Positions 8,286 through 60,555 of a stretch of 64,000 nucleotides of DNA are shown one piece after another. The stretch comes from an uncultured Pseudomonadales bacterium (GTDB taxonomy: Bacteria > Patescibacteriota > Microgenomatia > UBA1400 > PJMF01). Each line of letters starts with the position of its first letter. Position 1 is the first letter of the stretch. The notes under the pieces were generated by a model that saw nothing but the letters and a program-made list of their open reading frames with translations, made no database searches and was not told the origin of the DNA. Position numbers and translations under genes: made by a program. Location: positions 648 through 64,647 of the forward strand of contig CAZCXA010000002.1 of the NCBI GenBank assembly GCA_964502565.1, in the 5' to 3' direction.

Positions 8286-8325
<40 letters not shown>

Positions 8326-8382
8326 GCTTTAATTGGCGAACAGACAAACCCTTGGGACCTTCTACAGCCCCAGGATGCGATG

Positions 8383-11203: not shown

Positions 11204-11243
<40 letters not shown>

Positions 11244-11995
11244 TTGTTTGGTATTTAGCCTTGGAGTGTGGTCACCCCAGCTTAAAACGGGAGTTTGCCG
11301 TCTCCCATCCTATTCAGGAATCTCTCTAGATTGTTTTGGATTTTGCGTACACGACTTTCACGCTCTTTGGTCACTAATTCCATAGTGTTCTGCTATCCGC
11401 CACTCTCACATGTGAGAGTCCTACAACCCCCCTGTAAACAGGGGTTTGGGCTGTTCCCGGTTCGCTCATCGCTTACTAAGGGAATCTCTTACGATTTTTT
11501 TTCCTCCGGGTACTAAGATATTTCAGTTCCCCGACTTACCCCCGTGCCGTAAACGGCACAGTCATCTTGCTCTCACAAGATGGGGTTTCCCCATTCGGAC
11601 ACCGACGGGTTATGTGCTTTTTGCCAGCTAACCGTCGACTTTCGCGGGCTATACGTCCTTCATCGGCCAAACAAGCCTAGGCATTCGCTTTCTACGTTAG
11701 TTCACACAAGTTTAGTTAGACCCAAGGGTCTAACAAGATATTGAATTTGAAATTGAACTATTTTGACGATGTTTTCTTCACATGTTAAAGAGCGAAAGGA
11801 TGTTTTCATCTCTCGCAGTAGCCTCGCTGTCTGATTCTGTCAGACGCGCGTTGAAAACTGTTCAAGATGTTAAACATTCCTTATATTCAGTAATCTTTTA
11901 ACCGGTTCATTTTATTTTTTTCAAGCAACTTCCAAACATTTCTGATTTGCTAACCAAAAAGCAAGGTGTTACAAGAGACAATAAAAAGAACCCTG

Positions 11996-12069
11996 TGGAC
12001 CTGGGGAGACTCGAACTCCCGGTCTCTTCGTTGCAAACGAAGCGCTTTAGCCAACTAAGCCACAGGCCC
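11996..12069 (-). tRNA. tRNA-Ala (anticodon UGC)
   Basis: Reverse complement is GGGCCTGTGGCTTAGTTGGCTAAAGCGCTTCGTTTGCAACGAAGAGACCGGGAGTTCGAGTCTCCCCAGGTCCA. It forms a cloverleaf with anticodon loop UUUGCAA and the G3:U70 Ala identity pair. No CCA is encoded. It sits in the spacer upstream of the 23S. Confidence 0.9.
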
Positions 12070-18086: not shown

Positions 18087-18160
18087 GCGCGCGTAGCTCA
18101 ATCGGTTAGAGCACCAAGCTTATACCTTGGCGGTTCTTGGTTCGAGTCCAAGCGCGCGCA
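18087..18160 (+). tRNA. tRNA-Ile (anticodon UAU)
   Basis: GCGCGCGTAGCTCAATCGGTTAGAGCACCAAGCTTATACCTTGGCGGTTCTTGGTTCGAGTCCAAGCGCGCGCA. Seven-bp acceptor stem, anticodon loop CUUAUAC (U33, anticodon UAU, A37), T-loop TTCGAGT. No CCA encoded. Confidence 0.75.
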
Positions 18161-18251
18161 CTTTTTTTGTTTTTTAGCCTAGAAAATCGCAAATTTTAGC
18201 AATAGAGACACTTTTCTAAGTAAAATCTTTTTCTCTTTGCTAAAAACAATT

Positions 18252-25793: not shown

Positions 25794-26120
25794 CTAGGTT
25801 GTGAGATCTATCTCAAAAAATAACTTCATTAACTGATCTCCGAACTTGGTGAGTCTATAATAAACCCTTTGACCATGTTTTTTATCAACCACTAGATTAG
25901 CCTCTCTTAAATCAGCTAAATGATGCGAGATTAAACTCTGCTCAAGTTTAACGATTGGTTGGAGCGCGCTTACACAAAGCTCCTGTTGACGTAGTAAACA
26001 CATTAACTTGAGTCGATTTTTTTCCGCAACTATCTTAAACAATGAAGACAACTCGTTCATTTTGTTGCAGGCGCACTCGTTTTTAGGATAAGTACAAAAG
26101 TCGCATGAATCCATATTCAT
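25794..26120 (-). CDS. ArsR/SmtB-family transcriptional regulator with a Cys-rich N-terminus
   Basis: HTH region LCVSALQPIVKLEQSLISHHLADLREANLVVDKKHGQRVYYRL. N-terminal CDFCTYPKNECAC. Confidence 0.7.
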   Translation of the reverse strand: MNMDSCDFCTYPKNECACNKMNELSSLFKIVAEKNRLKLMCLLRQQELCVSALQPIVKLEQSLISHHLADLREANLVVDKKHGQRVYYRLTKFGDQLMKLFFEIDLTT

Positions 26121-26206
26121 ATATTATAGAGAAATGACACAGAGTGTCTATAACTAAAAAAGTTCTCACTGAAAAAATGAGTTGATCTTTAATCTTAACT
26201 TATTTG

Positions 26207-28549
26207 CTACAACCTTGCTCTCACTGCCATCTCTGCCTCGATCACCTCTTTATCCTTACCATACTTTAACCGAGACAGCTCTCTAATCATCTCAGCCAAC
26301 TTCGGATTCATCTGCGCCTCGATCTTTGCAATATCTTTTTCCAAAGACACGCTAAAGGGAGTCATTGGCTCATTGTCTACAATGGTCTTCATGTACACAT
26401 GGTATTTTTCAACATTGGTGAGGTCGGTCTCGGTAAAAACAGGCGTGAACTCATGTTGCAAAAAGTTGGCATCGGTGACACCAATTCGAAACGAAACCAT
26501 GGTGCCCACGTTGCCAAAGACAGCATTTTTTACATCTTCATCAATCTGACCAATATATTGATTAGCTACAATTAAGTTAAGCTTGTACTTGCGAGCCTCT
26601 GATAAAATCACAGCAAAATCTTCTGTGGCATAGTTTTGAAACTCATCAACATATAAGAAAAAATCTTCGCGTTTTTCCATGGGCATATCAGCTCTACTCA
26701 TGGCAGCAGTCAAGATTTTAGGCACCAAGATCAAACCCAAAAACTTAGCATCTTCCTCGCCCAACACACCTTTGGATAAATTACACAGCAAGATCTTTTT
26801 TTCATCCATTGCTTTTCTAAAATTAAACGCGCTTTTGGGCTGACCAATAATATTTCGCATGGTTTTGTTGGTCACAAATCGACCAAACTTGGACACAATG
26901 TAATCCAATACCTCAGACTTATGGAAATCACTGGTTTGAGCGATTTGGTCGGTCCAGTAACGCTTTACCACCGGGTCTTTAATATAAGGCAAGGTTTCTA
27001 CAACAAAGTTTTCATCAGTTATAATACGTACCACCTCAATAAAGGTGGAGTTTTCTCGACTCATCACCGATAACATGGCATTACGAATCGCGTGCTCAAA
27101 ACGCGGACCAATAATACCGGTCCGATGCGGATCATATAACTTATACATCAAGTTAATAATCGAGCTCACCACAAAATGTTGCTCCTGTTCTGAATAAGCC
27201 TCCATAATATTTAAGCCCATGGGACGTTCTCTATCAGAAGGATTAAAATAGATCACATCCTCGGCTCTCTCAGGAGGCATCAGCTCTAAAATATCTTCAA
27301 CAAAATCACCGTGAGGATCGATCGCGGCCACACCCTTACCTTCTTCAATATCCTGCAAGATCATCTGCTTTAAAAACTCTGATTTTCCAGTACCGGTTTT
27401 ACCAACAATATACATGTGGCGTCGGCGATCATTTAACTTCATATACACCTTGCGTCGCTCGCCTCGATAATAAGACTCACCAATAAATAAACCCTCGTCA
27501 GGAATTTCTTGAGGCGCTGGGGCATTTTTAGCGGTCAGCCACTTAATGTGGTGGGTCTCAACGGTTTTGTTGGGAAAATGAAAAACGGTTGCCAACTCTG
27601 CCGTGCTTAAGATGCTTGTTTTGAACTTAAACAAAGGCATATATCGATAGATAAAATCAATCACAAACAGATGCTTGATCAAAACCTTGGTTTTTTTAAA
27701 CTTGTTGTAGGCGGAGGTAAACTGAGCAAAAGCACCGGTTATATTTCCTAAGTGAGTTTCTGCCTCGTCATTTGTAGAAGCAGATACCACTATCCTGATA
27801 GAGGTACGAAAGCCTGGATGCGACACCTGATCACTAATAGCCTCCATTTCCTTAGGATCATGGTCATAACTTGCTTTCTCTGGATCAGCCTCTTTTTTCT
27901 TTTTTTCAGTAATATAAGAACGGCCTTTTTTTTGCCACTTACCTGGCACTGGTTGAATTAAAATCTGCAAAACCCCGCCTTCTGTTTCTCGCATTTTGGA
28001 CATGGCAGTGGTGATTAAAGACATACCATCAGTGGGCAAATCTTTGTAAATCTCTGCTGGATGATAATCCGCACTATCTTTTTTTAAACTTGCAAAGGCG
28101 ACTCGACCGTCTTCATTAAAAATATTAACCTCATCAACTTCTTTAATATATGCCTGGGGATAAGCGCCGTTAATCTGCTTCTCAACATGATCTTGAATCT
28201 TGCGCGAACAACTCACATAAAAAGCAATCTCTTCTTTTAAAGCCACGATCTCGAACGCCACAATATCCTGCGATCTAGTTAAAGAAAAACCACTTTTATT
28301 AAGTGAGTAAAGCCCAGCAAACATCTGCTCGGCTGCATCGATTTTAATCTCATTATCTTTGGGCAGTTTTACTAATAAAGTGACAAAACTGAGAGCATAA
28401 TCTTGACGTTTACGATTTTTAAGCCACTGTAAAATCATGTAGGTGAAGGCTACTAAAATAGCCAACAAAACCACACCCAAGATTAAACTAAATAAAATCA
28501 CGGTGAGTTGTGAGATGAGTTGGTTAGAAGCTTCGGTGGTGATCTGCAT
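26207..28549 (-). CDS. Membrane-anchored T4SS coupling-protein-like ATPase (VirD4/TraG/TraD family) with an unusual ~330-aa N-terminal domain
   Basis: N-terminal TM. Walker A GKTGTGKS. Walker B region FFLYVDEFQNY. Overall TraG/VirD4-like C-terminal ATPase. Confidence 0.55.
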   Translation of the reverse strand: MQITTEASNQLISQLTVILFSLILGVVLLAILVAFTYMILQWLKNRKRQDYALSFVTLLVKLPKDNEIKIDAAEQMFAGLYSLNKSGFSLTRSQDIVAFEIVALKEEIAFYVSCSRKIQDHVEKQINGAYPQAYIKEVDEVNIFNEDGRVAFASLKKDSADYHPAEIYKDLPTDGMSLITTAMSKMRETEGGVLQILIQPVPGKWQKKGRSYITEKKKKEADPEKASYDHDPKEMEAISDQVSHPGFRTSIRIVVSASTNDEAETHLGNITGAFAQFTSAYNKFKKTKVLIKHLFVIDFIYRYMPLFKFKTSILSTAELATVFHFPNKTVETHHIKWLTAKNAPAPQEIPDEGLFIGESYYRGERRKVYMKLNDRRRHMYIVGKTGTGKSEFLKQMILQDIEEGKGVAAIDPHGDFVEDILELMPPERAEDVIYFNPSDRERPMGLNIMEAYSEQEQHFVVSSIINLMYKLYDPHRTGIIGPRFEHAIRNAMLSVMSRENSTFIEVVRIITDENFVVETLPYIKDPVVKRYWTDQIAQTSDFHKSEVLDYIVSKFGRFVTNKTMRNIIGQPKSAFNFRKAMDEKKILLCNLSKGVLGEEDAKFLGLILVPKILTAAMSRADMPMEKREDFFLYVDEFQNYATEDFAVILSEARKYKLNLIVANQYIGQIDEDVKNAVFGNVGTMVSFRIGVTDANFLQHEFTPVFTETDLTNVEKYHVYMKTIVDNEPMTPFSVSLEKDIAKIEAQMNPKLAEMIRELSRLKYGKDKEVIEAEMAVRARL

Positions 28550-28743
28550 AGATTAAAACTCAAAGATAATATTAAGTGTTTAGCAACGTATTTTCCAGAT
28601 AATATTTGGTAAAGTATTTTGTTAAATACATAATGTTTTGTTCAATCTATAGTAAAACAAGTTTTTAAAACATGATCAGTTAACCTCGCACTCTTTTTTA
28701 AATCTGGGTAAACACTTAATGCTAAATATTATCCTAAATATTT

Positions 28744-29466
28744 TTATACCTGCTCCTCTCGATATACTACCTTGCCTTGAAACATCTTGATAATCTTTTG
28801 ACTCCATTCTACCAACCAACGAATACTAAACTTGACACTTTTTCTTTTTCCTTTCTTTTGAATTTCTGGAGTAATAGGTAAGACTACTACTCTTTCTGAC
28901 ACGTATTGATCGTCTGATGCCATGCTGTCCTGAGCATCTGCAATAACAATCTCCTTTGGCGCGGTCTCTTCTTTTTGCACTTGTTGAATAAAACTTTCTA
29001 CTTCAGGAGACAGCTCAGGACTTTTTTCTTCTTCCACAAACTGAATACTCGGGGCTTGTTCTGTCAAGTTAAGCCCTCTTCCCTCAACCGTTTCTTTGCG
29101 TGAGGCCGGCATCGGTGCAGACTGAGTTGATTGCGCAGAGCCGTTCAAACCAGATTGATTGGTTAAATCTTGAGTTTGGTCAACTGACACTGCTTGAGCA
29201 TTTTTATCAATATTTTTATCAAGGTTTTCCCTTAAAACCGGCTCTTTTTGAGCGCTCTCAACCTCATCCATAACCTCCTCTAGTAACTTTAACTTATCGG
29301 TTGTAGTAATTTCAGATGGCGCAGTTGGGTTTAGTTGATCAGCGGAGACTTGAGAAGTTGGCTCAGGTTGTTGCTCTACGTCATGGTGAACACCTATGGC
29401 TGAGGGCGTGATTAAAAACTCTTTAATCTTTTGCTGAAATTCTTGGGCAAGGCGGTGTTGAGACAT
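28744..29466 (-). CDS. Hypothetical acidic, largely disordered protein (240 aa)
   Basis: Low-complexity E/Q/S/T-rich sequence. Immediately upstream of the coupling-protein-like gene on the same strand. Confidence 0.35.
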   Translation of the reverse strand: MSQHRLAQEFQQKIKEFLITPSAIGVHHDVEQQPEPTSQVSADQLNPTAPSEITTTDKLKLLEEVMDEVESAQKEPVLRENLDKNIDKNAQAVSVDQTQDLTNQSGLNGSAQSTQSAPMPASRKETVEGRGLNLTEQAPSIQFVEEEKSPELSPEVESFIQQVQKEETAPKEIVIADAQDSMASDDQYVSERVVVLPITPEIQKKGKRKSVKFSIRWLVEWSQKIIKMFQGKVVYREEQV

Positions 29467-29565
29467 ACTCTCTAATCATACTATACAAAAGGTTAAAAGT
29501 TAAAATTCAAAAGTTGATGCTGAGATTTTTACTGAGTGGCAAAAGTTATCATCAGGGTGAAAAAG

Positions 29566-35513: not shown

Positions 35514-37304
35514 CTACTTTGCCTCTGCAATCCCTGCCAACTCATCCAACCCGGTTGCCTGTTCCCAATCTTTGTCTTGTCTAAACTTCACCAATCTAGG
35601 AAAACGCAAGGCTTTACCTGCTGTATGTAAGGGAGAAGCTGTTAGCTCGTCAGCCGCAATCTCTACCACGATTGCTGGAGCCACCCAGACATCAGGTTTT
35701 AACTCCTTAGGAACGTCATACTGCTGAGGCATGACCTTCGCAAAGTTATCGTCCGCCAGCTGTTTAATATGTTTAAACTCCTTGTCGGTTAAGCCGGTGC
35801 CGATTTTAGCAATAGTTTTAACCTTTTTCTCTTTGTTTAACACACCGACCAAAAATGCTCCAATACCAAACTGGGTTCTTTTACCCTTGCCTCGGTAATA
35901 CCCCATGACCACACAGTCTAGAGTGTCGTTAAGTTTACCCCGTGTGCCCTCTGCTTCTTTGATCTTTACCCAGCGCCAACCTTTGCGACCAGAGCGGTAA
36001 ACCGAGTCAACCTTTTTTATTAATGCCCCTTCTAAACCTAGTTGTAACTGACGAGCGTGATAACTCTGCACCTCTGCTGGATCAGTGGTAATCTTAAACT
36101 CGGTTAACTCGATCACATCATTGGACCGCACGGTCTGAGCTAGTACTTGCTTGCGCTTGGCTAACTTTTCATTAATCAAGGATTTGCCGTCTAAAAACAA
36201 GATGTCAAACACAAAAAACTTGATCGGTACTTTTTTAGATTGTCTACTAATGCCATATTTTCGTTTACGAGTAATGGTTTCTTGAAAAGGTAGTAACTCT
36301 TTAGTTTTTGGATCATAAGCAATCGCTTCAGCATCTAAAATGCAGTTGTTTGCTTTAATTTGCAACAAAGATTTCTCAAGCTCAGGAAACATATGGGTGA
36401 CATTGTCTAGGTTGCGCGTAAAAACTTGATAAGAATTTTTTTGATTATTTTTATCAACATGAATTTGCGTACGCAAGCCATCATACTTAGGCTCCATCAT
36501 CACTCTGCCCATCTTCTCAATAATTTCCTGAGCAGTGTTAAGTCGCTGACACAATGCAGGTAAAACCGGAATACCTAGTTGCACCTGGTAGTTGTTAAAA
36601 AACTGTTGCACCTCTTGATCGGTTTGAGTTTGCAGATAACCCTGAGCCAACTGGCCAATATCAGCTTTTTTTTGATAAGTAGCCTCAATCTTTTTACTGT
36701 CAGTCTTACTGTTCAAACGCGCCCAAGAGAGAGCATCAATCATGGTCATGGTAGAAAACCCAAGTCGCAACTTGCCAATAATAATTCGTGTCACAAACTT
36801 GATTGAGGTTAGATCAAGTTTTTGTAACAGCTGTTGCGTTTGAACAATCTTTCTCTCTTGAGAGCCCTCACCTTCCTCTTGAGCGATCCTTGATAATGCC
36901 TGATGCACCTCCAGGATAGTTAGTTGTTCTGGGTTTAAGTTTAAATCCTTTACCAGTTCCTCAATCACTAAACCCAAATCACCCAGTTCCTTGTTCTTTT
37001 GCTGAATTTTTTTTAGGTAGAGGCTGTCGTCTGATTCATTAAATAATCCTGGTGAAGACAAAGGCTCATCTTGATTTAAACAGTTTAACAGTTTGGCTAA
37101 GGCTCGCATGGTGAGTTTCTCACTCATACCAAACTCTAACGATTGGTAGCTTGGAACCAAACCACCCAACATTAAGTAGCACGCCTGAGGAGTTTCTTCT
37201 GTTTCAAGTTTTTTAAACAACTCAGCTAAAAGTGATGTCATCTCGAGTCGTGAGTTGAGTTGTTCTAGTTGATCTAAATAATGAGCAAAACTGGAAAATT
37301 GCAT
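35514..37304 (-). CDS. ATP-dependent DNA ligase
   Basis: Adenylation motif MMEPKYDGLRTQIHV (KxDG), then OB-fold-like motifs ...GLEGALIKK..., ...WVKIK.... Confidence 0.85.
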   Translation of the reverse strand: MQFSSFAHYLDQLEQLNSRLEMTSLLAELFKKLETEETPQACYLMLGGLVPSYQSLEFGMSEKLTMRALAKLLNCLNQDEPLSSPGLFNESDDSLYLKKIQQKNKELGDLGLVIEELVKDLNLNPEQLTILEVHQALSRIAQEEGEGSQERKIVQTQQLLQKLDLTSIKFVTRIIIGKLRLGFSTMTMIDALSWARLNSKTDSKKIEATYQKKADIGQLAQGYLQTQTDQEVQQFFNNYQVQLGIPVLPALCQRLNTAQEIIEKMGRVMMEPKYDGLRTQIHVDKNNQKNSYQVFTRNLDNVTHMFPELEKSLLQIKANNCILDAEAIAYDPKTKELLPFQETITRKRKYGISRQSKKVPIKFFVFDILFLDGKSLINEKLAKRKQVLAQTVRSNDVIELTEFKITTDPAEVQSYHARQLQLGLEGALIKKVDSVYRSGRKGWRWVKIKEAEGTRGKLNDTLDCVVMGYYRGKGKRTQFGIGAFLVGVLNKEKKVKTIAKIGTGLTDKEFKHIKQLADDNFAKVMPQQYDVPKELKPDVWVAPAIVVEIAADELTASPLHTAGKALRFPRLVKFRQDKDWEQATGLDELAGIAEAK

Positions 37305-37409
37305 GATTAATTAAAAAGTTAAAATATAAAAAACCAGATCTCAAAAGTCCGCATTAACAGGGAAAACCAGGTAAGCTTTACATTATTATTTTGTTTTGAC
37401 TTTTGATCT

Positions 37410-38510
37410 TTATCTGTCCATTAAACTGTATGTCACTCCCTTGGTCACACCATGCTTCTTGATCACTCCTTTTTCAATCAAGTCTTTCAGATCTCGAAGA
37501 ATTGTATCAACCGAGACATTGGGTAGCAAATCTTGAGCATCAATCGAGCTAATCTCTCCCTGCTCTTGCAACAACTCTAAAATTACAATCTGTCTTTCTG
37601 ATAAAGCCACCTGACGTCCCAACTCCTTTTTCATCTTTAAATCCTTAGAAAGCTTTAGCACTTTTTCTTTAACCTTATCAACCTCGATTGCCAGTCCATA
37701 ACAAAAATATTCCAGCCAATAAGTCATATCTGATTTTTCAGTTTGCTGAACTGACTGCAGGGCGCTGTAATAACTCTCAACATCTTCGTCAAAATACTCC
37801 TCAATTGAAAAAAACCGTTTAAAATCATAGCCTGACGCATAAAGTACGAGCGTAGTCATGGCGCGAGCAGTGCGACCGTTGCCTTCAATAAAAGGATGAA
37901 CATAAACAAGCTGATAATGTGTAATGGCAGCGCGAAAAATCGGGTGAATCTTTTTTGAATCAGAATGATTTAACCATTTAAAAAAATCCTCGATTAAATA
38001 TGGAACCTCCACTGATACAGGCGGTCTAAACACTATTTTGTTTGCGCTTTCTCCCGCGCCCTTCACTATCACTTGTTTGCGCCGATAGCGACCAATCTGA
38101 TCCTCCATTAGTAAATTATTCATGGTAAGTCCATGAAGATGACTTAGTGTTTTTTCAGAGAATAAATCTTTAGAGAGTTGAGGGTCTTGCGCATCAATCC
38201 AGTTAATGACATTGCGGTAGTTAAGAACTTCTTGCACATCGCGTTCGCGAGCAATAATGCCAGCTTTTTTAGCCACTTCCTCAGGATCATCAACCAACTC
38301 TAATCGAGTCACTCTTTGAGCTTGATCTTGAGTTAAATCATTACCCTCAATCTTTGTCCCAAAGTGAATGGTGCGCGCCATTGCATCTTTTTTAAACTTT
38401 GCCTCCCAGGCAGGAACTAGCGGAGAGTGGTCGATTAAAGCTCGAGCTGACTCAACCGCGCTCACATAAGTTAAAAGGTTGCTGGTTATCTCAAAATTAG
38501 GTTTAAACAT
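37410..38510 (-). CDS. Fic-family protein (AMPylator-type) with a C-terminal winged-helix
   Basis: Fic motif HPFIEGNGRTAR. The C-terminus (LSERQIVILELLQEQGEISSIDAQDLL...) is wHTH-like. Confidence 0.8.
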   Translation of the reverse strand: MFKPNFEITSNLLTYVSAVESARALIDHSPLVPAWEAKFKKDAMARTIHFGTKIEGNDLTQDQAQRVTRLELVDDPEEVAKKAGIIARERDVQEVLNYRNVINWIDAQDPQLSKDLFSEKTLSHLHGLTMNNLLMEDQIGRYRRKQVIVKGAGESANKIVFRPPVSVEVPYLIEDFFKWLNHSDSKKIHPIFRAAITHYQLVYVHPFIEGNGRTARAMTTLVLYASGYDFKRFFSIEEYFDEDVESYYSALQSVQQTEKSDMTYWLEYFCYGLAIEVDKVKEKVLKLSKDLKMKKELGRQVALSERQIVILELLQEQGEISSIDAQDLLPNVSVDTILRDLKDLIEKGVIKKHGVTKGVTYSLMDR

Positions 38511-41259: not shown

Positions 41260-41634
41260 ATGACAAGTTTTTTTCAAAAACACCTTCAGTTGCCTTTGGT
41301 CAATGGTGCTGACCAGCCAATGAAGCTAGGCGATCAGCTCTTATTAAGAAACAATCAAAAAGTATCAGAAGTTTATGACACTCCTGGTACGATCGTCAAC
41401 TTAGTGGTGAGTAATCTTTTTTTGTTAGCAGGTATTGTTATCCTCTTTCTTATCATCCTGGCGGGCTTGAGTTATATTAAAGATAGTGAAAAAGGTAAAG
41501 AGGAGGCAAAGAACTTGGTCACAGGTGCAGTCATTGGCTTTGTCGTGATGTTTTCTGCGTATTGGGTTATCCAAATTATCAAACTTATTACTGGGGCAGA
41601 TATACCCATCCAGATACCAAAGATACCTATCTAG
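41260..41634 (+). CDS. Pilin-like paralog 1 of 7 (two-TM hairpin with KGKEEAK loop); VirB2/TrbC-like T4SS pilin candidate
   Basis: TM - SEKGKEEAKNLVTGAVIGFVV - TM. The most divergent member and lacks an obvious signal peptide. Confidence 0.4.
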   Translation: MTSFFQKHLQLPLVNGADQPMKLGDQLLLRNNQKVSEVYDTPGTIVNLVVSNLFLLAGIVILFLIILAGLSYIKDSEKGKEEAKNLVTGAVIGFVVMFSAYWVIQIIKLITGADIPIQIPKIPI

Positions 41635-41691
41635 AAACCAAAGACACTCATTTAAATAAAGTTTAATACCAAAAATTAAAATACTGAGTTT

Positions 41692-42162
41692 ATGAAAAAA
41701 AAGTCTTCAAATTCCTTAAATAGTTGCTGGCATAAAACTTTGACTTTCTTCACCATTTTTGTGACAATCTCTTTAGCTATGCCTCAAACACTTTTAGCAG
41801 ATGATGAGACCACAAGCATCTTTGGTGAGATTGCTCCGCCTCCGGGAGTAAATAAATATCAAGCTGAGGTTGAAAAAGTGGGAGGACAAGTTGGCATCAT
41901 CCTTTTTCTTTCCAACATTATTAGGCTAATCACTGTTGCGGCTGGAATCTGGGTCATGTTTAATCTTATCTCAGCTGGTTGGCTTTATATCAACTCGTCA
42001 GGAGATTCTGGCGCAACTGAAAAGGTGTCTGCAAAAATTACCAACAGCATCATTGGTCTAGCTGTAGTAGCTCTGTCATATACTCTTGCGGGTGTGGTTG
42101 GTTACTTAATTTTTGGAGACGCCGGGTTTATTCTTAACCCAGCACTTTTTACTATTAATTAA
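41692..42162 (+). CDS. Pilin-like paralog 2 of 7 (signal peptide + two TM)
   Basis: Signal peptide ...ISLAMPQTLLADDETT. Core AGWLYINSSGDSGATEKVSAKITNSIIGLAVV. Confidence 0.5.
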   Translation: MKKKSSNSLNSCWHKTLTFFTIFVTISLAMPQTLLADDETTSIFGEIAPPPGVNKYQAEVEKVGGQVGIILFLSNIIRLITVAAGIWVMFNLISAGWLYINSSGDSGATEKVSAKITNSIIGLAVVALSYTLAGVVGYLIFGDAGFILNPALFTIN

Positions 42163-42224
42163 ACCCTAATTTTCAGAACTACGCACTTATTAAATCGTCG
42201 ATTTTAACCAACTCCAAAACCGAT

Positions 42225-42641
42225 ATGACCTCAATAAAAATCTTAACAAATTTAATACAACTTACAGGACAGTTTGGTAATGATGGGTTTCAGCCCCCCA
42301 CTGACGCTTACACCGAAGGCGCTGACACCAACCCAGGATTAATCAAGATACTAGCGACAGGTATCTCCAATGTAATTGGAATCTTAACTACTTTGGCTGG
42401 TCTGTTTTTTATTTTAAACTTTTTTTTAGGAGCGGTTGGTTGGATTACAGCAGGCGATGATACTGGCAAGGCTGAAAAGGCAAGAACTAGAATCATGAAT
42501 GCTGTTGTTGGTTTGGTCATTGTTGTGGCATCTTATGGTGTCATTGGCCTGATTGGCTCAATGATCGGTATCGACTTTATTAATATTGGAGAGATTTTAG
42601 AAAAAATACATCCAGGAAACTTAGTTGATGGATTAGGCTAA
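42225..42641 (+). CDS. Pilin-like paralog 3 of 7
   Basis: Core VGWITAGDDTGKAEKARTRIMNAVVGLVIV between two TM helices. Confidence 0.5.
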   Translation: MTSIKILTNLIQLTGQFGNDGFQPPTDAYTEGADTNPGLIKILATGISNVIGILTTLAGLFFILNFFLGAVGWITAGDDTGKAEKARTRIMNAVVGLVIVVASYGVIGLIGSMIGIDFINIGEILEKIHPGNLVDGLG

Positions 42642-42698
42642 GTTTAAAAAAATTTTTTAATAACAAATAAATTATCATCTTTAATTTACAAAAATAAT

Positions 42699-43109
42699 AT
42701 GCTTAACTCTTTTATGGATTTTTTTAATAAATTTTTTGCTTCAGCTGTTTTTGCTGATGAATCAACCAGCACCGATGGTCAGATTATTAATCCAGTTATT
42801 GGAGAGTGGGGTAAAAATCCAGAAAAGGCAACTAGTGGTGTGCTTTTTGCTGAATATGTTGTACGAATCTGGCGAATAGGCATTAGTGTTGGCGCCTTCG
42901 TCGTGGTCTTGTTTTTTATTATTGCCTCATATGAGTGGTTAACCAGTGGTGATGATACCAAAGGTGTTGAAAAGGCTAAATCTAGATTTACCAACGCCAC
43001 GATTGGCTTGGTTTTGCTCGTGGCTTCTTTTGTGATTGTTGGCTTTATTGGCGTATTATTATTTGGAGATGAGTTTGATATTCTTCACCTTACTTTTCCA
43101 ACTAATTAA
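42699..43109 (+). CDS. Pilin-like paralog 4 of 7 (signal peptide)
   Basis: Signal ...ASAVFADEST. Core YEWLTSGDDTKGVEKAKSRFTNATIGLVLL. Confidence 0.5.
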   Translation: MLNSFMDFFNKFFASAVFADESTSTDGQIINPVIGEWGKNPEKATSGVLFAEYVVRIWRIGISVGAFVVVLFFIIASYEWLTSGDDTKGVEKAKSRFTNATIGLVLLVASFVIVGFIGVLLFGDEFDILHLTFPTN

Positions 43110-43139
43110 CTCATCAAGCAACAAATTAACTCTTTTTTT

Positions 43140-43631
43140 ATGATCCAAAACTTACTCGCAGACGCAGCCGTTCAACCAGAAATTAATCTTAGGGAAGAAG
43201 GTTCAAAAGTTTTACCATTCGGAGAAAACATGAATAAACCAGGAGATAATAGCGGTGTTGTTTTTTCGATTATTAGTTCACTGCTAACCGTGGTAGCCAT
43301 TGTGGCTGGAGTGTTGCTACTTGTTAACTTGATTTACGCCGGTATTCAGTGGATAGCCGCTGGAGGAGATTCCGGCAAGCTTGAAAAGGCGCGCAATAGA
43401 ATCATGCACTCAATTGTTGGCTTTGTTATTTTTGTCTCGGCAATATCTATATTTATGCTGATCCAGAACTTGCTCAATATTGAGTTACTCAAGTTTTCAT
43501 ATAAAAAACACAAACCGAACATTACTTCCTACTCCTGCTGTACTGTGAACCAGGAGTGTGTTGGCTTTATTGGTAATGGGGAAGAGTTTGGTTGCACCAA
43601 TATAACCCGAGCCTGCGAGTCTTGTAAATAA
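43140..43631 (+). CDS. Pilin-like paralog 5 of 7 with a Cys-rich C-terminal extension
   Basis: Core IQWIAAGGDSGKLEKARNRIMHSIVGFVIF. C-terminal SYSCCTVNQECVGFIGNGEEFGCTNITRACESCK (7 Cys). Confidence 0.5.
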   Translation: MIQNLLADAAVQPEINLREEGSKVLPFGENMNKPGDNSGVVFSIISSLLTVVAIVAGVLLLVNLIYAGIQWIAAGGDSGKLEKARNRIMHSIVGFVIFVSAISIFMLIQNLLNIELLKFSYKKHKPNITSYSCCTVNQECVGFIGNGEEFGCTNITRACESCK

Positions 43632-43839
43632 ACATAATTAAAATATTTTTTTTACTATTTATATCAAGATTGCGATCAAGTTTAACCTCAATTTTTACAA
43701 AAGTTATAATGCATATTATGCTAAAAAATGTTTAATGTATTGTGCAAATTTTCAAATCTTTGACTTTTTCATTTAAAACCTGATAAAATATCAATTAGAC
43801 TAATAATTAATTAATATTTTAAAAAATTAAGGAGAAAAT

Positions 43840-44226
43840 ATGAACAGAATTTCTAAATCAATTATTGGAGTCGGGGTGTCGGTTGCCTCAACTTTTGCTT
43901 TAGCATCTCAAGTAATGGCCGACGAACTTGGTATAGAGGGCACGGTTGAGATTCCAGAAGGCTTCTTTTTTACAGATGCAGAAGGTCTTGTGTCAACAAT
44001 ACTGCGTGCCGTTATGCTAATTGCTGGTTTGCTGGTCTTTGCTTATCTTATCTGGGGTGGTATTGAGTGGATAACCTCAGGTGGTGACAAAGGCAAAACA
44101 GAAAATGCCAGAAATAAAATTACTGCTGCGGTTATCGGTTTGGTAATCTTGGCAGCTTCCTATGCAATCTTCCAGATTGTACTTTCTCTACTGGGAGTGC
44201 AGGGATATAAAGGAATCTTTGGATAA
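43840..44226 (+). CDS. Pilin-like paralog 6 of 7 (signal peptide)
   Basis: Signal ...ALASQVMADELG. Core IEWITSGGDKGKTENARNKITAAVIGLVIL. Followed by a rho-independent terminator. Confidence 0.5.
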   Translation: MNRISKSIIGVGVSVASTFALASQVMADELGIEGTVEIPEGFFFTDAEGLVSTILRAVMLIAGLLVFAYLIWGGIEWITSGGDKGKTENARNKITAAVIGLVILAASYAIFQIVLSLLGVQGYKGIFG

Positions 44227-44254
44227 TAACCACTTTAAAACCATTAAAGTATTA

Positions 44255-44281
44255 AAACCCTCGGCAACGAGGGTTTTTTTA
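44255..44281 (+). terminator. Rho-independent terminator after pilin-like gene 6
   Basis: AAACCCTCG-gcaa-CGAGGGTTT followed by TTTTTTT. Confidence 0.7.
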
Positions 44282-44395
44282 TTAATTAAAATCTTTTTAG
44301 CTGAGTCTTTACAATTCCTGTTATATAATAGATTTATTAAAAGATAGTCTTAAAGAACTACCTACTTAATTATTTATTATTTTCTGTAAATCATT

Positions 44396-44854
44396 ATGAA
44401 AAAATCAAGAGTCCTTAGTGCTTCAATGCCAATATTTTTTTTTCTTGTGATCACCAGCCTCTTTCTTCCTCAAAAAATTCAAGCTCAAGTTAGCCCTCAA
44501 GAATGGGAACCTGGTTTGTGTCAAATCGATGGCGTAGCCACTGTTCAAGGAGTTGGTTGCCTACTGGCTAACATCTTATCTGTAGCCTTAACCGCTATTG
44601 GCCTAGTTGGATTTGTGATGCTGGTTGTGGGCTCAATGAAATGGCTTTTATCTGGTGGCAATACGCAAAATGTGGAAAGTGCCAGAAAAACCATGACCTG
44701 GGCGTTTGTTGGTTTGGGCGTTGCTCTAGGCTCATTTTTAATGATTAACCTAATTGCTCAATTTACCGGCATCAATGTTATTACCGAGTTCTTTATTCCA
44801 TCTAGCGACACTGGGTTGCCAGGACAGACTCAGTGGCAAAACATTGGCCAATAG
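44396..44854 (+). CDS. Pilin-like paralog 7 of 7 (signal peptide)
   Basis: Signal ...LFLPQKIQAQVS. Core MKWLLSGGNTQNVESARKTMTWAFVGLGVA. Confidence 0.5.
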   Translation: MKKSRVLSASMPIFFFLVITSLFLPQKIQAQVSPQEWEPGLCQIDGVATVQGVGCLLANILSVALTAIGLVGFVMLVVGSMKWLLSGGNTQNVESARKTMTWAFVGLGVALGSFLMINLIAQFTGINVITEFFIPSSDTGLPGQTQWQNIGQ

Positions 44855-58482: not shown

Positions 58483-60555
58483 TTATTCTTCTGGCTCTTG
58501 ATAATCATCAATCGAGTGTTGACCATAAACCACAGCTTGTTGACTAATATCAGTGGCTTGAGCCACATTATCTCTATTGTCTTGTAAGCCAGTTGCTTCA
58601 TCTTTAAGCTGGTTGGGTTCATCATGTGATTGACGAGCATTACCTGTAGGCAACACTTGCTCAATCTCAGCTTCATCCTCTTCTTCATAATATGGTTGAG
58701 TATTGGTGTTGTTCGTGAGTTGATCAGTGTGATACTCGGCTTCTCTTGCCTTTTTTCTTGCCAACAACTCGTTGGGATCGGTGGTAATCATGTAGTGCTC
58801 CTCTGGACTTGCAACCACGCGTAGGGCAACATGGTTTTGTCCAACAAAAAAGATGCCCTCTCCCACGTCAGCCGTTACCAAAAGTTGTCGTTCTCCGTTG
58901 GAAAGGTGAAAGGTTTCGGTTAAGGTGTTGATTGAAACCGTGGACTGTTTCATCAACAGTCTAATTGATGCATTAGACACAATGGCTTTGCCAAAATTAT
59001 TGTCTAAAAAGTCCTCTACATCTTGAGTGATGGTGGTGATAGCTAAAAAATACTTTCTAGCTCTTTTAGTCATGGCATAAATAAAACGCGCGCTATCTGG
59101 GTGTTGCATAAAATACCAAGCCTCATCAATTACCAGCAACCGTTTTTTAAAATCTTTTTTAACCTTTGTCCAGATAAAATCTAGGATAATATACATCGCA
59201 ATCGGTCTTAACTCTTCTTCCATCTCTTTAACACTAAACACGGTCAAGGGATTTTGAATATTAATGTTGGTGGGTTTATCTAAAATACCTCTAAAAGAGC
59301 CGGTGATAAACTTTTCCAAGCGCGCGACCAAGTCATCGGCTTGATCATTTTCCATACCAGCTAGGGCTTTATAAAGATCCTCCATTAAAGGTGGAATGTT
59401 TTTTTGAGTAGCTGGATCAGGGGTAATACCCTTAGCCTTATAAGAAGAGACTAGCGCGCGGTCCAAAAGCGCCTCTTGCTCAGAAGTCATCTCGCCTAGC
59501 ATAACTTTTAACAAACCATGTAAAGATAAAATTTTTTGTCCGAGCTCATTAGATCCCTCCTCATAAACCTGCGATAGATCAAAAGGGTTAATCTTTGCTT
59601 TAGAGCCAAAGGTAAAGTTAATATACTCACCACCCACGGTATCACAAAGCTCCTCATACTCTTTTTCTGGATCAAGGACAATCACCTCGGTGTCAAACAT
59701 TAGCTGGCGTAAGATCTCCACCTTAACAGCATAGGACTTACCTGCTCCTGATTTTGCTAGGATTAGCATGTTGTAGTTCTCAAGCTGGAACCTATCAAAA
59801 ATAACCAAGGACTCGTTGTGTTCGTTAATGCCGTATAGGATTCCTTGCTCAGAAGTTAGCTCAGAGGAAACAAAAGGGAAGGTGGTAGCTAAAGAAGTGG
59901 TGTCCATGTTGCGGGCAATGTTCAAGTAGTCAACTCCCATGGGCAGGGTGGTTTTGAAACCGTCTGCCATTTGCAGGGTTGCTTTTTTTGAAACGATCAG
60001 TAGTGAGCCTAGGGTGGACTGCACATTTTTAGTAACCTTCTCCAGCATCTCAACAGAATCAGCCCTGATCGTGGTATAAAGACCAAATTGATAAAACCTT
60101 TCAGCCCCAGCTGCCAACTGCTCCCTGATGTTGCGAGCATCGATCAGTTGAATCTCGGTCGTAATGTTACTAATCTTGCCAGCCCTAATATCAGACTGGA
60201 TCTCAGCCTCCATCTCAGTAATTTTTCTTTTAAGACTGTCTAAGATCTCACCACTGTCCATGGGAAAGATAAACATGGCAGTGTTAAGCTGATGAGGAAA
60301 GTTGATCAACGGTGATAGCCAGTTAGCCGGTACTGACCTAGGATAACCAGCGATAAACAAGGTTCTTGAGTATGAGGAGTTGATCTTTTGAAAAGTGAAG
60401 TCAATCTCGATCGCTTCAGGGGCAATAATATCCTCAATGGTTACCAGACCTTTTGAAAACTCCTCGATTTGTCTTAACTCCTCTTTTTTCTTAAGGTCTT
60501 GTTCTTCTTCAGCAGTTGTTTTTTTTAAAAATGGAAAAGGTAGATCAAGCTTCAT
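58483..60555 (-). CDS. virB4: Type IV secretion system ATPase VirB4 (Gram-positive/Tn916 Orf16-like)
   Basis: ...RTLFIAGYPRSVPANWL..., ...TTLPMGVDYLNIARNMDTTSLATTFPFVSSEL..., Walker A LAKSGAGKS, Walker B LLVIDEAW. Acidic C-terminal tail. Confidence 0.75.
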   Translation of the reverse strand: MKLDLPFPFLKKTTAEEEQDLKKKEELRQIEEFSKGLVTIEDIIAPEAIEIDFTFQKINSSYSRTLFIAGYPRSVPANWLSPLINFPHQLNTAMFIFPMDSGEILDSLKRKITEMEAEIQSDIRAGKISNITTEIQLIDARNIREQLAAGAERFYQFGLYTTIRADSVEMLEKVTKNVQSTLGSLLIVSKKATLQMADGFKTTLPMGVDYLNIARNMDTTSLATTFPFVSSELTSEQGILYGINEHNESLVIFDRFQLENYNMLILAKSGAGKSYAVKVEILRQLMFDTEVIVLDPEKEYEELCDTVGGEYINFTFGSKAKINPFDLSQVYEEGSNELGQKILSLHGLLKVMLGEMTSEQEALLDRALVSSYKAKGITPDPATQKNIPPLMEDLYKALAGMENDQADDLVARLEKFITGSFRGILDKPTNINIQNPLTVFSVKEMEEELRPIAMYIILDFIWTKVKKDFKKRLLVIDEAWYFMQHPDSARFIYAMTKRARKYFLAITTITQDVEDFLDNNFGKAIVSNASIRLLMKQSTVSINTLTETFHLSNGERQLLVTADVGEGIFFVGQNHVALRVVASPEEHYMITTDPNELLARKKAREAEYHTDQLTNNTNTQPYYEEEDEAEIEQVLPTGNARQSHDEPNQLKDEATGLQDNRDNVAQATDISQQAVVYGQHSIDDYQEPEE

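What the first reader, a model, noticed from the sequence alone, without database searches (positions are those of the whole stretch)
26207..28549. Atypical membrane-anchored coupling-protein-like ATPase (VirD4/TraG-like) with a ~330-aa N-terminal extracytoplasmic domain, far from the VirB4 and pilin loci
It has Walker A GKTGTGKS and a DEF-type Walker B (VDEFQNY), as in T4CP/TraG-D ATPases. The ATPase is preceded by one TM helix and a large domain of unknown function. With the pilin-like array (41-45 kb) and VirB4 (58-60 kb), it forms a T4SS-like gene set dispersed over more than 30 kb rather than organised as one operon. A disordered acidic protein (28744-29466) lies directly upstream and may be part of the same module.
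Basis: partly seen in the sequence, partly recalled or inferred. Interest (0 to 1): 0.55.

Follow-up and report, generated by a model that had tools for sequence, protein, structure and literature searches.

The report
Membrane-anchored hybrid VirB4/VirD4-type ATPase
This gene encodes a highly conserved, membrane-tethered ATP-driven motor found in nearly all ultra-small Patescibacteria (CPR): it joins a coupling-protein (VirD4/TrwB-like) engine to a VirB4-like front domain, sits in an operon with a small partner protein, and its counterpart appears to be essential in the one CPR species tested genetically.

Summary
The 780-aa ORF at 26207-28549 (-) is real, with intact Walker A and Walker B motifs and one N-terminal TM helix. 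Its motor is closest to coupling proteins (T4CP: TrwB, TraD, DotL), not to HerA, FtsK or VirB4. The roughly 300-aa N-domain (Pfam DUF8128) is cytoplasmic, not extracytoplasmic. Its predicted fold matches only the N-terminal domain of VirB4/TrwK. The family occurs across Patescibacteria, is inherited vertically, and lies among housekeeping genes. No T4SS gene was found within about 6 kb in any of 90 loci. It has two paralog subfamilies, P1 (this gene) and a longer P2. P1 is nearly always preceded by a small gene on the same strand, here the 240-aa acidic protein. These partners fall into three lineage-specific families with no detectable homology to each other. By synteny and profile scores, the P1 pair corresponds to SEML1_0141/0142 of S. 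epibionticum, both scored essential by Tn-seq. The same two-domain module, without the TM helix, occurs in Bacillus phages and plasmids. T4CP homologues dispersed far from virB4 were already published in 2025. The hybrid architecture, the paralog split, the partner genes and the link to essentiality appear undescribed. The most likely role is the substrate-feeding ATPase of the CPR T4SS. A T4SS-independent DNA translocase is the main rival.

The parts
26207..28549 (-). Gene for the 780-aa P1-subfamily DUF8128 + T4CP-type ATPase (stop codon at 26207-26209)
   Evidence: The ORF was found. The identical protein P0001 carries precomputed PF26449 + PF10412 + PF01935. It scores 1177 bits on the P1 profile and 634 bits on the P2 profile.
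28421..28513 (-). Single N-terminal transmembrane helix (aa 13-43), N-terminus out and C-terminus in
   Evidence: KD 3.22 for aa 17-35, followed by KNRKRQ. The model has a helix at aa 2-44. 372 of 402 family proteins have one TM before DUF8128.
27515..28414 (-). DUF8128 domain (aa 46-345): cytoplasmic, with a VirB4-N-terminal-domain-like fold
   Evidence: The domain-only AF2 model has pLDDT 92.4 and pTM 0.90. The top 14 Foldseek PDB hits are all R388 TrwK/VirB4 (E 7e-8 to 3e-5, TMq about 0.5). It also matches phage G gp155 'VirB-like'. No similarity to VirB4 is detectable by sequence.
26330..27514 (-). T4CP-type P-loop motor (aa 346-740), including an all-helical insert (aa about 454-582; nt 26804-27190)
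   Evidence: Pfam and NCBIfam hits are. The profile matches TrwB at 1.5e-7 and DotL at 1.9e-7 in PDB. Foldseek aligns TrwB over about 415 columns with TMt about 0.6. In direct scoring TrwB gets 37 bits and TrwK 1.2 bits. Helices are listed.
27380..27403 (-). Walker A motif GKTGTGKS (aa 383-390)
   Evidence: Located. G383, G388 and K389 are invariant in 41 and in 61 diverse homologues.
26639..26662 (-). Walker B motif FFLYVDEF (aa 630-637), followed by the conserved SEARKY...QY..Q segment
   Evidence: Located. D635, E636, F637, K654, Y655, Q664 and Q668 are invariant.
28744..29466 (-). 240-aa partner protein (family A): disordered, acidic and P/S/T/Q-rich N-terminal part plus a conserved C-terminal helix motif (VLPIT...G.RKS..SIRWLVEWS.KI.K)
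   Evidence: A small same-strand gene lies immediately upstream in most of 86 loci, often 0-30 nt away or overlapping. Family A was recruited in 25 loci. Its positional counterpart in ML1, SEML1_0141, is scored essential.
29475..29503 (-). Promoter-like site upstream of the partner gene, a candidate operon promoter
   Evidence: This is a consensus match only. No minus-strand promoter-like site and no terminator-like site lies in the 195-nt spacer 28550-28743.
26136..26148 (-). Terminator-like hairpin downstream of the ATPase stop codon, overlapping a strong promoter-like site for the arsR-type gene (25794-26120)
   Evidence: This is a consensus match only. ArsR HTH_5 was identified.
58483..60555 (-). 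VirB4-type ATPase of the T4SS-like system, beside dnaA and dnaN; a possible functional partner but not genetically linked
   Evidence: P-loop_TraG 6.7e-27 and AAA_10 3e-12. It matches the P1 motor profile only at 1.6e-4.
41260..44854 (+). Array of seven small ORFs; five of five tested are T4SS_pilin (VirB2-like) paralogs
   Evidence: PF18895 hits range from 1e-4 to 1.2e-8. The ORFs are listed.

Best explanation
The gene encodes a single-pass membrane protein with its N-terminus outside and the rest in the cytoplasm. The cytoplasmic part is a hybrid. The N-terminal domain (DUF8128) has the fold of the VirB4 N-terminal domain. It is followed by a VirD4/TrwB-type coupling-protein motor: a RecA-like nucleotide-binding domain with an all-helical insert and a short helical C-tail. 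The protein belongs to subfamily P1 of a two-paralog, vertically inherited family found across Patescibacteria. It is co-transcribed with a small partner protein that has a disordered acidic N-terminus and a conserved C-terminal helix.

Proposed mechanism:
1. The protein forms a membrane-apposed ring ATPase.
2. The VirB4-like domain mediates oligomerisation or docking to the inner-membrane platform of the T4SS-like machine (VirB4, VirB3, VirB6, VirB8-like proteins and pilins encoded elsewhere).
3. The small partner acts as an adaptor or regulator, comparable to CagZ with Cag-beta, IcmS/IcmW with DotL, or TraM with TraD.
4. ATP hydrolysis feeds a substrate (protein or nucleic acid, not yet known) into the channel.

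Shown: the architecture, topology, fold assignments, conservation of catalytic residues, distribution, the operon partner, and the absence of linkage to T4SS genes. Inferred: oligomeric state, docking to the T4SS, the partner's role, the substrate, and equivalence to the essential SEML1_0141/0142 pair.
For: Motor is T4CP-type:
- PF10412 scores 36.1 bits against a cut-off of 20.5. SXT_TraD scores 1.4e-14 and VirD4-like CD1115 3e-10.
- Across 41 members at 33-60% identity, TraG-D_C matches 39, TrwB_AAD_bind 37 and T4SS-DNA_transf 21 (best 1e-15).
- The profile matches TrwB at 1.5e-7 and DotL at 1.9e-7 in PDB, with no VirB4 hit.
- In direct scoring TrwB gets 37 bits, TrwK 1.2 and PrgJ 3.9.
- Structurally, TrwB aligns over about 415 columns with TMt about 0.6; Cag-beta and DotL also match.

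N-domain is VirB4-NTD-like:
- (details under parts).

Catalytic residues are invariant.

Essentiality and importance:
- Identity is 72-92% across Microgenomatia.
- At least 600 species representatives carry the family.
- The tree follows taxonomy.
- Saccharimonadia loci have the layout small gene, about 1,000-aa ATPase, 190-aa gene (-), Ig-like gene (-), gyrB. This equals SEML1_0141 to 0145, where 0141 and 0142 are scored ES.
- Those proteins score as P1, about 950 against about 580 bits.
- T4SS genes SEML1_0006-0019 are also essential.

Links to the T4SS:
- In Bacillus phage G, the homologue gp156 directly follows gp155, a VirB-like ATPase.
- T4CP genes are often encoded away from virB4 (PMC12102498).
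Against: - No T4SS gene lies within about 6 kb of the gene in any of 90 loci. Recurrent neighbours are instead a Xer-type recombinase with DivIC, dnaX, or gyrB.
- T4CP-like genes are reported in 2,918 of 3,035 genomes, but VirB4 in only 2,417. Many genomes therefore keep the ATPase without a detectable VirB4.
- Relaxases are almost absent.
- Homologues in SPO1-like phages and in small non-mobilizable Bacillus plasmids work where no T4SS is encoded.
- The canonical two-TM N-terminal domain of T4CPs is missing.
- The link to SEML1_0142 rests on synteny, size and profile scores of syntenic orthologues. The ML1 sequence itself was not examined.
- The similarity to the VirB4 N-terminal domain is structural only (TMq about 0.5).
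Confidence: 0.45

Rival explanations
1. The protein is a T4SS-independent, membrane-anchored DNA translocase: a T4CP-type motor exapted for a housekeeping DNA transaction. Candidates include handling of chromosomal or incoming DNA at the membrane, a role linked to replication, segregation or division, or DNA export or import through another channel. The small partner would act as a DNA or substrate adaptor.
For: - The gene is never near T4SS genes.
- Lineage-specific neighbours are DNA or division genes: a Xer recombinase (18 loci) with DivIC (13), dnaX (16), gyrB/gyrA (8).
- The family is more widespread than VirB4.
- The SPO1-like phage homologue sits with a ParM-like protein and overlaps a 'replication initiation by nicking' gene in a phage that has no T4SS.
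- Homologues occur on non-mobilizable plasmids (316 of 384 records).
- PMC12102498 itself raises exaptation.
Against: - A canonical FtsK (SEML1_0096) is present and essential in ML1, so the protein does not simply replace FtsK.
- Deleting comEC does not affect viability, so essentiality is not explained by competence-type uptake (PMC12857230).
- The neighbour genes differ between lineages and may be chance synteny in small genomes.
- The VirB4-like N-domain and the phage G pairing with a VirB-like ATPase point towards T4SS-type partners.
Confidence: 0.3
2. The protein is a second VirB4-type assembly ATPase rather than a substrate receptor. It would use the VirB4-like N-domain to extract or dislocate the many VirB2-like pilins, or to assemble the machine, working alongside the canonical VirB4.
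For: - Full-length Foldseek top hits are TrwK/VirB4, aligned over 820-910 columns.
- The N-domain matches only VirB4.
- The C-terminus has three short helices (aa 740-778); PMC3548315 describes three C-terminal helices as a VirB4-specific feature.
- One family member (probably P0141) has a two-TM N-terminus, and one of 41 members matches T4SS_pilin.
- The genome carries a pilin array.
Against: - By sequence the motor scores with T4CPs, not VirB4s.
- No VirB4 Pfam or NCBIfam model matches above its threshold.
- The gene is not adjacent to VirB3-like or pilin genes.
- The pilin-domain fusion is a single case.
- Phage and plasmid homologues occur without pilins.
Confidence: 0.12
3. The gene is cargo of an integrated mobile element (conjugative element, plasmid or prophage remnant), or a HerA/FtsK-type or anti-phage defence ATPase, with no core cellular role.
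For: - Homologues occur in Bacillus phages and in plasmids.
- phrog_5156 matches at 3e-92.
- There are weak PADLOC hits: mad8 2.4e-16 and HerA 2e-7.
- DUF87 scores 7.8e-9 and FtsK_SpoIIIE 3e-4.
Against: - Neighbours are housekeeping genes, and no integrase, relaxase or phage genes lie beside it in the window.
- GC content is unremarkable.
- The family is present across the phylum, its tree follows taxonomy and identity is very high.
- FtsK_SpoIIIE is below its cut-off and matches only 3 of 41 members. HerA NCBIfam scores 18.9 bits against a cut-off of 970.
- The defence hits cover only the P-loop core.
- The counterpart appears essential in ML1.
Confidence: 0.04

Closest known systems
Type IV coupling proteins (VirD4/TraG/TraD family; TrwB of R388, DotL, Cag-beta)
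   Same: The motor shares Walker A and B motifs, the DPxGD and RK...Q motifs, and an all-helical insert in the nucleotide-binding domain. T4CPs are its best sequence and profile matches. TrwB aligns structurally over the whole C-terminal half. The protein is membrane-anchored, and T4CPs are often encoded away from the mating-pair-formation genes. Small accessory proteins are known for T4CPs (CagZ, IcmS/IcmW, TraM).
   Different: It has one TM helix instead of two with a periplasmic loop. A 300-aa VirB4-like domain is inserted between the anchor and the motor. There is no relaxase and no linkage to T4SS genes. It is chromosomal, vertically inherited and present as two paralogs per genome. Sequence similarity to TrwB is confined to short motifs (37 bits), and to PcfC of pCF10 it is only 10 bits.
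VirB4 ATPases (TrwK of R388; PrgJ of pCF10)
   Same: Both have a two-domain layout, an N-terminal domain followed by a RecA-like motor. The N-domain fold matches only TrwK chains in the PDB. The full-length model aligns collinearly with TrwK. A short helical C-tail is present.
   Different: No similarity to VirB4 is detectable by sequence in either domain (TrwK 1.2 bits, PrgJ 3.9 bits). No VirB4 HMM matches above its threshold. The gene is not next to VirB3-type genes. A separate bona fide VirB4-type gene exists in the same window (58483-60555).
SEML1_0141/SEML1_0142 of Ca. Southlakia epibionticum ML1 (Wang et al. 2023, PMC10633639)
   Same: The locus layout equals that of the Saccharimonadia members of this family, which score as subfamily P1 like the window protein. 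In both, a small upstream gene sits within 13 nt and the ATPase domain starts at about aa 380. SEML1_0142 is flagged as a core and Patescibacteria-enriched family, and both genes are scored essential.
   Different: SEML1_0142 has 1,019 aa with a C-terminal extension that the 780-aa window protein lacks. The partner families (C and A) show no detectable homology. The correspondence was inferred without the ML1 sequences. A second ML1 paralog, SEML1_0293, is non-essential and is probably P2.
Bacillus phage and plasmid homologues (phage G gp156; SPO1-like CampHawk_129; phrog_5156; B. subtilis 24.7-kb plasmid ATPase)
   Same: They have the same DUF8128 + motor module (gp156: DUF8128 2.4e-42, motor 2.5e-60; structural TMq 0.74-0.78). 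In phage G the gene is adjacent to a VirB-like ATPase.
   Different: They have no TM anchor. They are encoded on mobile elements, at about 21-25% identity. Their contexts are phage replication or partition genes. The plasmid copy is split into two ORFs. Their function is unknown.

Membership tests
T4CP (VirD4/TraG/TraD/TrwB) | P-loop motor related by sequence to T4CP family models | tested here: met
   PF10412 scores 36.1 bits against a cut-off of 20.5. SXT_TraD and CD1115 VirD4-like are the best NCBIfam hits, though far below their equivalog cut-offs. TrwB and DotL are the top PDB hits by profile. TrwB is the best of eight reference ATPases.
T4CP (VirD4/TraG/TraD/TrwB) | Matches to PF02534 (T4SS-DNA_transf) and PF12696 (TraG-D_C) above the gathering score | tested here: inconclusive
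   For the window protein, TraG-D_C scores 18.7 bits, below the 22-bit cut-off, and PF02534 gives no hit. Across the family, 39 and 21 of 41 members match at E<1e-3.
T4CP (VirD4/TraG/TraD/TrwB) | All-alpha domain inserted in the nucleotide-binding domain | tested here: met
   The model shows nine helices at aa 454-582, between Walker A and Walker B. TrwB (NBD + AAD) aligns over about 415 columns with TMt about 0.6.
T4CP (VirD4/TraG/TraD/TrwB) | N-terminal membrane domain with two TM helices and a periplasmic loop | tested here: not met
   There is a single TM helix. 372 of 402 family members have one TM.
T4CP (VirD4/TraG/TraD/TrwB) | Genetic association with a relaxase/Dtr module or with T4SS genes | tested here: not met
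   None of 90 loci has VirB4 or pilin genes within about 6 kb. Relaxases are nearly absent from the phylum (PMC12102498).
T4CP (VirD4/TraG/TraD/TrwB) | Hexameric DNA-stimulated ATPase required for substrate transfer through a T4SS | not testable with these tools
   This needs biochemistry and genetics.
VirB4 | Characteristic N-terminal domain | tested here: met
   Met at the fold level only. The DUF8128 model hits only TrwK chains (E 7e-8, TMq about 0.5). It also hits phage G gp155 'VirB-like'.
VirB4 | Sequence match to VirB4 models or reference proteins | tested here: not met
   AAA_10 scores 14.3 bits, below the 27.5-bit cut-off, and there is no CagE_TrbE_VirB hit. TrwK scores 1.2 bits, PrgJ 3.9 and Tn916 orf16 -0.8 on the motor profile. 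The DUF8128 profile gives E>0.09 on all VirB4s.
FtsK/SpoIIIE | PF01580 motor above cut-off, a multi-TM N-domain and a gamma domain | tested here: not met
   PF01580 scores 20.7 bits, below the 24-bit cut-off, over only 35 residues, and matches 3 of 41 members. There is one TM helix. A canonical FtsK exists separately in ML1.
HerA | HerA-type motor at equivalog level | tested here: not met
   The generic DUF87 hit (36.4 bits) covers only aa 356-439. NCBIfam HerA scores 18.9 bits against a cut-off of 970. HerA ranks below T4CPs in PDB searches.
Pfam DUF8128 (PF26449) + T4CP-motor family, subfamily P1 | DUF8128 domain N-terminal to the motor, with a higher score on the P1 profile than on P2 | tested here: met
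   Precomputed PF26449 is present on the identical protein. My own DUF8128 profile gives 2.8e-101. The protein scores 1177 bits on P1 and 634 bits on P2.

The most novel reading that the evidence does not exclude
P1 and its small partner are the 'missing', essential coupling ATPase module of the Patescibacteria T4SS. Earlier work reported no recognisable coupling protein (Wang et al. 2023) or a non-essential one (the 2025 survey). The architecture, a VirB4-type N-domain fused to a VirD4-type motor, would preserve an ancestral-like intermediate of the VirB4/VirD4 split. It would share an origin with a module still circulating in Bacillota phages and plasmids, and would have been domesticated together with the monoderm-type T4SS.
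Probability: 0.3. Interest if true: 0.8.

Novelty: new variant of a known kind. Interest (0 to 1): 0.6.

Why it matters
The T4SS-like system of Patescibacteria is essential for epibiotic growth, yet its substrate and mechanism are unknown. The field currently holds that it has either no coupling protein or a dispensable one. This analysis gives a concrete handle:
- a T4CP-type motor that is universal and highly conserved;
- an apparently essential counterpart in the one species tested;
- a VirB4-like docking domain;
- a dedicated small partner protein.

This makes several questions testable by depletion, pull-downs and structure prediction of complexes: what does the CPR T4SS move, and how is it energised? 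The hybrid architecture also bears on how VirB4 and VirD4 diverged. The phage and plasmid homologues point to a wider, uncharacterised ATPase family.

Tried and rejected
- **FtsK-replacement idea.** It was suggested by the Xer, DivIC, dnaX and gyrB neighbours. I rejected it in its simple form because ML1 has a canonical, essential FtsK.
- **Extracytoplasmic N-domain.** Rejected on topology.
- **Homology between the three partner families.** hhalign gave a probability of 0.2% for every pair.
- **Sequence-level link between DUF8128 and the VirB4 N-terminal domain.** None was found.
- **Pilin-domain fusion as a general feature.** A local pilin HMM found nothing. Only one protein has two real TM helices.
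- **Defence-system reading.** PADLOC gave only P-loop-core hits.
- **Second copy in the window.** None was found.
- **Literature searches** for PF26449, DUF8128 and SEML1_0142 returned nothing. No characterisation of the phage homologues turned up.
- **Source naming.** Public sources call the Saccharimonadia members 'ATP-binding protein'. This is compatible with SEML1_0142 but not decisive.
Full report
**Observation.** The minus-strand ORF at 26207-28549 encodes 780 aa. Walker A (GKTGTGKS) lies at aa 383-390 and Walker B (FFLYVDEF, then QNY) at aa 630-640. There is one strongly hydrophobic segment (aa 17-35, KD 3.22), and no other window scores above 1.42. An identical protein occurs on several public contigs. 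More than 7,600 homologues were recovered, and the best 120 are 72-92% identical over the full length. The gene is therefore real and under strong constraint. A 240-aa acidic, P/S/T/Q-rich ORF lies upstream at 28744-29466. A VirB4-type ATPase lies at 58483-60555, next to dnaA and dnaN. T4SS_pilin (PF18895) paralogs lie at 41260-44854. Ordinary housekeeping genes lie between these loci. The window is a Patescibacteria (CPR) chromosome segment.

**What the motor is.** Pfam gives TrwB_AAD_bind at 36.1 bits (cut-off 20.5) and the generic DUF87. FtsK_SpoIIIE and TraG-D_C fall below their cut-offs. The best NCBIfam hits are SXT_TraD and the CD1115 VirD4-like family. I assembled 41 diverse full-length members at 33-60% identity. 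Among these, TraG-D_C matches 39, TrwB_AAD_bind 37, T4SS-DNA_transf 21 (best 1e-15), FtsK_SpoIIIE 3 and P-loop_TraG 1. The family profile finds TrwB (1.5e-7) and DotL (1.9e-7) in the PDB, then HerA (5e-4), and no VirB4. I also scored reference proteins from R388 and pCF10 on the motor profile:

| Protein | Bits |
|---|---|
| TrwB (T4CP) | 37 |
| PcfC (T4CP) | 10 |
| PrgJ (VirB4) | 3.9 |
| TrwK (VirB4) | 1.2 |

The motor is a deep-branching relative of the VirD4/TrwB group. Catalytic residues are invariant across the phylum.

**Topology and the N-domain.** The single TM helix is followed by KNRKRQ, and there is no second TM before the ATPase. The roughly 300-aa N-domain must therefore be cytoplasmic. 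One TM helix followed by basic residues is the family rule (372 of 402 proteins). This domain is Pfam DUF8128 (PF26449). The accession is precomputed on the homologues and the name comes; the model is absent from the local Pfam copy. An exhaustive search with the domain alone found 1,351 clusters at 50% identity. Every full-length hit (about 750-1,130 aa) carries the domain at the same N-proximal position.

AlphaFold models are confident: pLDDT 89.2 for the full protein and 92.4 (pTM 0.90) for the domain alone. The full model's best PDB matches are full-length TrwK/VirB4 chains aligned over 820-910 columns. TrwB follows, aligned over the C-terminal half. The domain alone matches only TrwK/VirB4: the top 14 hits have E from 7e-8 to 3e-5, probability 1.0 and TMq about 0.5. 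The next hits are unrelated flavoenzymes. If the domain had aligned to the RecA-like part of VirB4, then TrwB, HerA and FtsK should also have appeared, and they did not. In the viral structure library the domain matches phage G gp156, phage JL and phage Slash at TMq 0.74-0.78. It also matches phage G gp155, annotated VirB-like (E 8e-9). No sequence similarity to VirB4 N-domains is detectable. The protein is thus a hybrid: one TM helix, a VirB4-NTD-like domain and a VirD4-type motor.

**Distribution, paralogs and context.** The 80 loci kept span Microgenomatia, Dojkabacteria, WWE3, Saccharimonadia, Berkelbacteria, Doudnabacteria, Paceibacteria-type groups and Peregrinibacteria. A distance tree follows taxonomy. 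Three loci carry a second, deeply divergent copy. A profile built from those copies retrieves a long subfamily of about 960-1,180 aa, which I call P2. Profile discrimination places the window protein in P1, at 1177 against 634 bits. This fits the published count of 5,713 T4CP homologues in 2,918 of 3,035 genomes. Only 148 of those lie near virB4, and VirB4 itself is found in only 2,417 genomes (PMC12102498). The dispersed arrangement is therefore already known.

In my 90 loci no VirB4 or pilin gene lies within about 6 kb. Recurrent neighbours are specific to each lineage:
- **Microgenomatia and Dojkabacteria:** a convergent Xer-type recombinase (18 loci) and DivIC (13 loci).
- **Paceibacteria-type groups:** dnaX (16 loci) and a 211-aa downstream family (19 loci).
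- **Saccharimonadia:** gyrB (8 loci).

**The partner gene.** In most loci a small same-strand ORF of 120-240 aa lies directly upstream, frequently 0-30 nt away or overlapping. These ORFs form three lineage-specific families:
- **Family A** (25 loci) includes the window's 240-aa protein. Its C-terminal motif is LP.T...G...S.RWL.EW..K..K.
- **Family B** has 19 loci.
- **Family C** has 10 loci.

Each has a low-complexity N-terminal part and a conserved C-terminal helical module. No homology between the families is detectable. In the window, a promoter-like site precedes the partner gene. The 195-nt spacer holds no promoter-like or terminator-like site. A terminator-like hairpin follows the ATPase gene. 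These are consensus matches only.

**Link to genetics.** The Tn-seq tables of Wang et al. (PMC10633639) list two T4CP-like genes in S. epibionticum ML1.
- **SEML1_0293** has 921 aa and is scored non-essential. It is presumably the gene cited as dispensable in the 2025 paper.
- **SEML1_0142** has 1,019 aa and is scored ES/ES/ES. It is flagged as a core and Patescibacteria-enriched family.
- **SEML1_0141** has 139 aa, lies 13 nt upstream of 0142, received no insertions and is scored GD/ES/ES.

SEML1_0142 is followed by a 193-aa gene and an Ig-like gene on the other strand, then by gyrB and gyrA 2.5 kb downstream. This is exactly the layout of my Saccharimonadia family-C loci. The ATPases at those loci score as P1, about 950 against about 580 bits, on a profile that contains no Saccharimonadia sequences. 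Public sources name them 'ATP-binding protein', as in the ML1 table. I infer, with roughly 85% confidence, that the window's gene pair is the counterpart of the essential SEML1_0141/0142. I could not obtain the ML1 sequences. The same tables show a canonical, essential FtsK (SEML1_0096). That removes a simple FtsK-substitute explanation.

**Relatives outside CPR.** The motor alone has plasmid-borne relatives at up to 34% identity. They occur in Sulfitobacter, Bradyrhizobium, Streptomyces, Bacillus, haloarchaea and Sulfolobus, and 316 of 384 records are predicted non-mobilizable. The protein matches phrog_5156 at 3e-92. Real Bacillus phages encode the full two-domain module without a TM helix:
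- **Phage G gp156** scores 2.4e-42 on DUF8128 and 2.5e-60 on the motor. It lies directly after the VirB-like gp155.
- **SPO1-like CampHawk_129** lies in an operon with a ParM-like gene and overlaps a 'replication initiation by nicking' gene.

A 24.7-kb B. subtilis plasmid carries the module split into two ORFs. The module is therefore older and wider than Patescibacteria. CPR added a membrane anchor and fixed two chromosomal paralogs.

**Interpretation.** I think the protein is most likely (0.45) the substrate-feeding, coupling-type ATPase of the CPR T4SS-like machine. It would dock through its VirB4-like domain, and the small partner would regulate or load it. The arguments for this are:
- homology of the motor to T4CPs;
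- the VirB4-like N-domain;
- the phage G pairing with a VirB-like ATPase;
- the parallel essentiality of the T4SS genes and the P1 pair in ML1.

The main rival (0.30) is a T4SS-independent DNA translocase. It is favoured by the complete lack of linkage to T4SS genes, the wider distribution than VirB4, the DNA-related neighbours, and the homologues in phages and plasmids that encode no T4SS. A VirB4-like assembly or pilin-dislocation role (0.12) and a mobile-element or defence origin (0.04) are less likely. PMC3548315 holds that VirB4 and VirD4 are sister families descended from a soluble ancestor. A VirD4-type motor that retains a VirB4-type N-domain would fit an intermediate or ancestral-like form, but I did not test this phylogenetically.

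**Novelty.** T4CP homologues dispersed in Patescibacteria genomes, and the idea that they were exapted, are published. [quoted passage not shown] I found no prior description of the following:
- the VirB4-like fold of DUF8128;
- the P1/P2 split;
- the three partner families;
- the correspondence to the essential SEML1_0141/0142 pair;
- the phage and plasmid homologues.

Searches are the literature searches that returned nothing on these points. I therefore class the finding as a new variant of a known kind.

Noticed in passing
window 7726-12069 (-): The 23S rRNA gene spans 3,705 nt against a 2,925-nt model. It contains a group I intron at 8390-8691, so further insertions are likely. A 5S rRNA lies at 7726-7842 and a tRNA-Ala at 11996-12069. 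No 16S gene is adjacent, so the rRNA operon appears unlinked.
   Followed up: partly
window 18087-18161 (+): There is a tRNA-Ile with anticodon TAT (UAU), an uncommon way for bacteria to read AUA.
   Followed up: no
window 60708-62261 (-): A 517-aa ORF directly upstream of the VirB4-type gene has no Pfam hit. It is a candidate divergent T4SS component (VirB6- or TrsD-like).
   Followed up: no
window 35514-38510 (-): An ATP-dependent (archaeal/eukaryotic-type) DNA ligase lies at 35514-37304. Next to it, at 37410-38510, is a Fic/DOC protein with a DeoR-type HTH domain.
   Followed up: no
window 48913-52035 (-): A 1,040-aa DUF4012 protein lies between the pilin array and dnaN.
   Followed up: no
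L053 1128-6163; L056 5968-14478; L064 5917-13369: In three genomes the P1 and P2 paralogs lie in tandem or a few kb apart. In L053 P2 starts at the last base of P1.
   Followed up: partly
P0141 (866 aa): This is the only family member with two real N-terminal TM helices (aa 23-41 and 69-87). It is probably the single protein that matched Pfam T4SS_pilin, which would make it a possible pilin-like fusion.
   Followed up: partly
L091 6989-8176 (Sulfitobacter mediterraneus plasmid NZ_CP081110.1): A 395-aa stand-alone motor has neither a TM helix nor DUF8128. It is the closest non-CPR relative (4e-117 on the motor profile) and is flanked by transposases, which may indicate horizontal transfer.
   Followed up: partly
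L092 5069-7704 (B. subtilis plasmid CP025942.1): The DUF8128 + motor gene is split into a 171-aa ORF (N-half of DUF8128) and a 696-aa ORF (C-half plus motor). Similar 'DUF87' genes occur on many 24-28-kb Bacillus plasmids.
   Followed up: partly
L094 4182-7719 (Bacillus phage CampHawk): The phage homologue (906 aa) overlaps a downstream 'replication initiation by nicking' gene and follows a ParM-like gene. This resembles a T4CP-plus-nickase pair inside a lytic SPO1-like phage.
   Followed up: no
PMC12102498 compared with the PMC10633639 supplement: The 2025 survey states that the ML1 t4cp homologue is non-essential. That fits SEML1_0293. The Tn-seq table also lists a second T4CP-like gene, SEML1_0142, and its small upstream neighbour SEML1_0141 as essential.
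   Followed up: yes
L014, L017, L018, L020, L022 and others: Many loci with typical CPR gene content come from MAG records titled 'Gammaproteobacteria', 'Bathyarchaeia', 'Pseudomonadales' and similar. These are probably mislabelled or contaminated bins.
   Followed up: no
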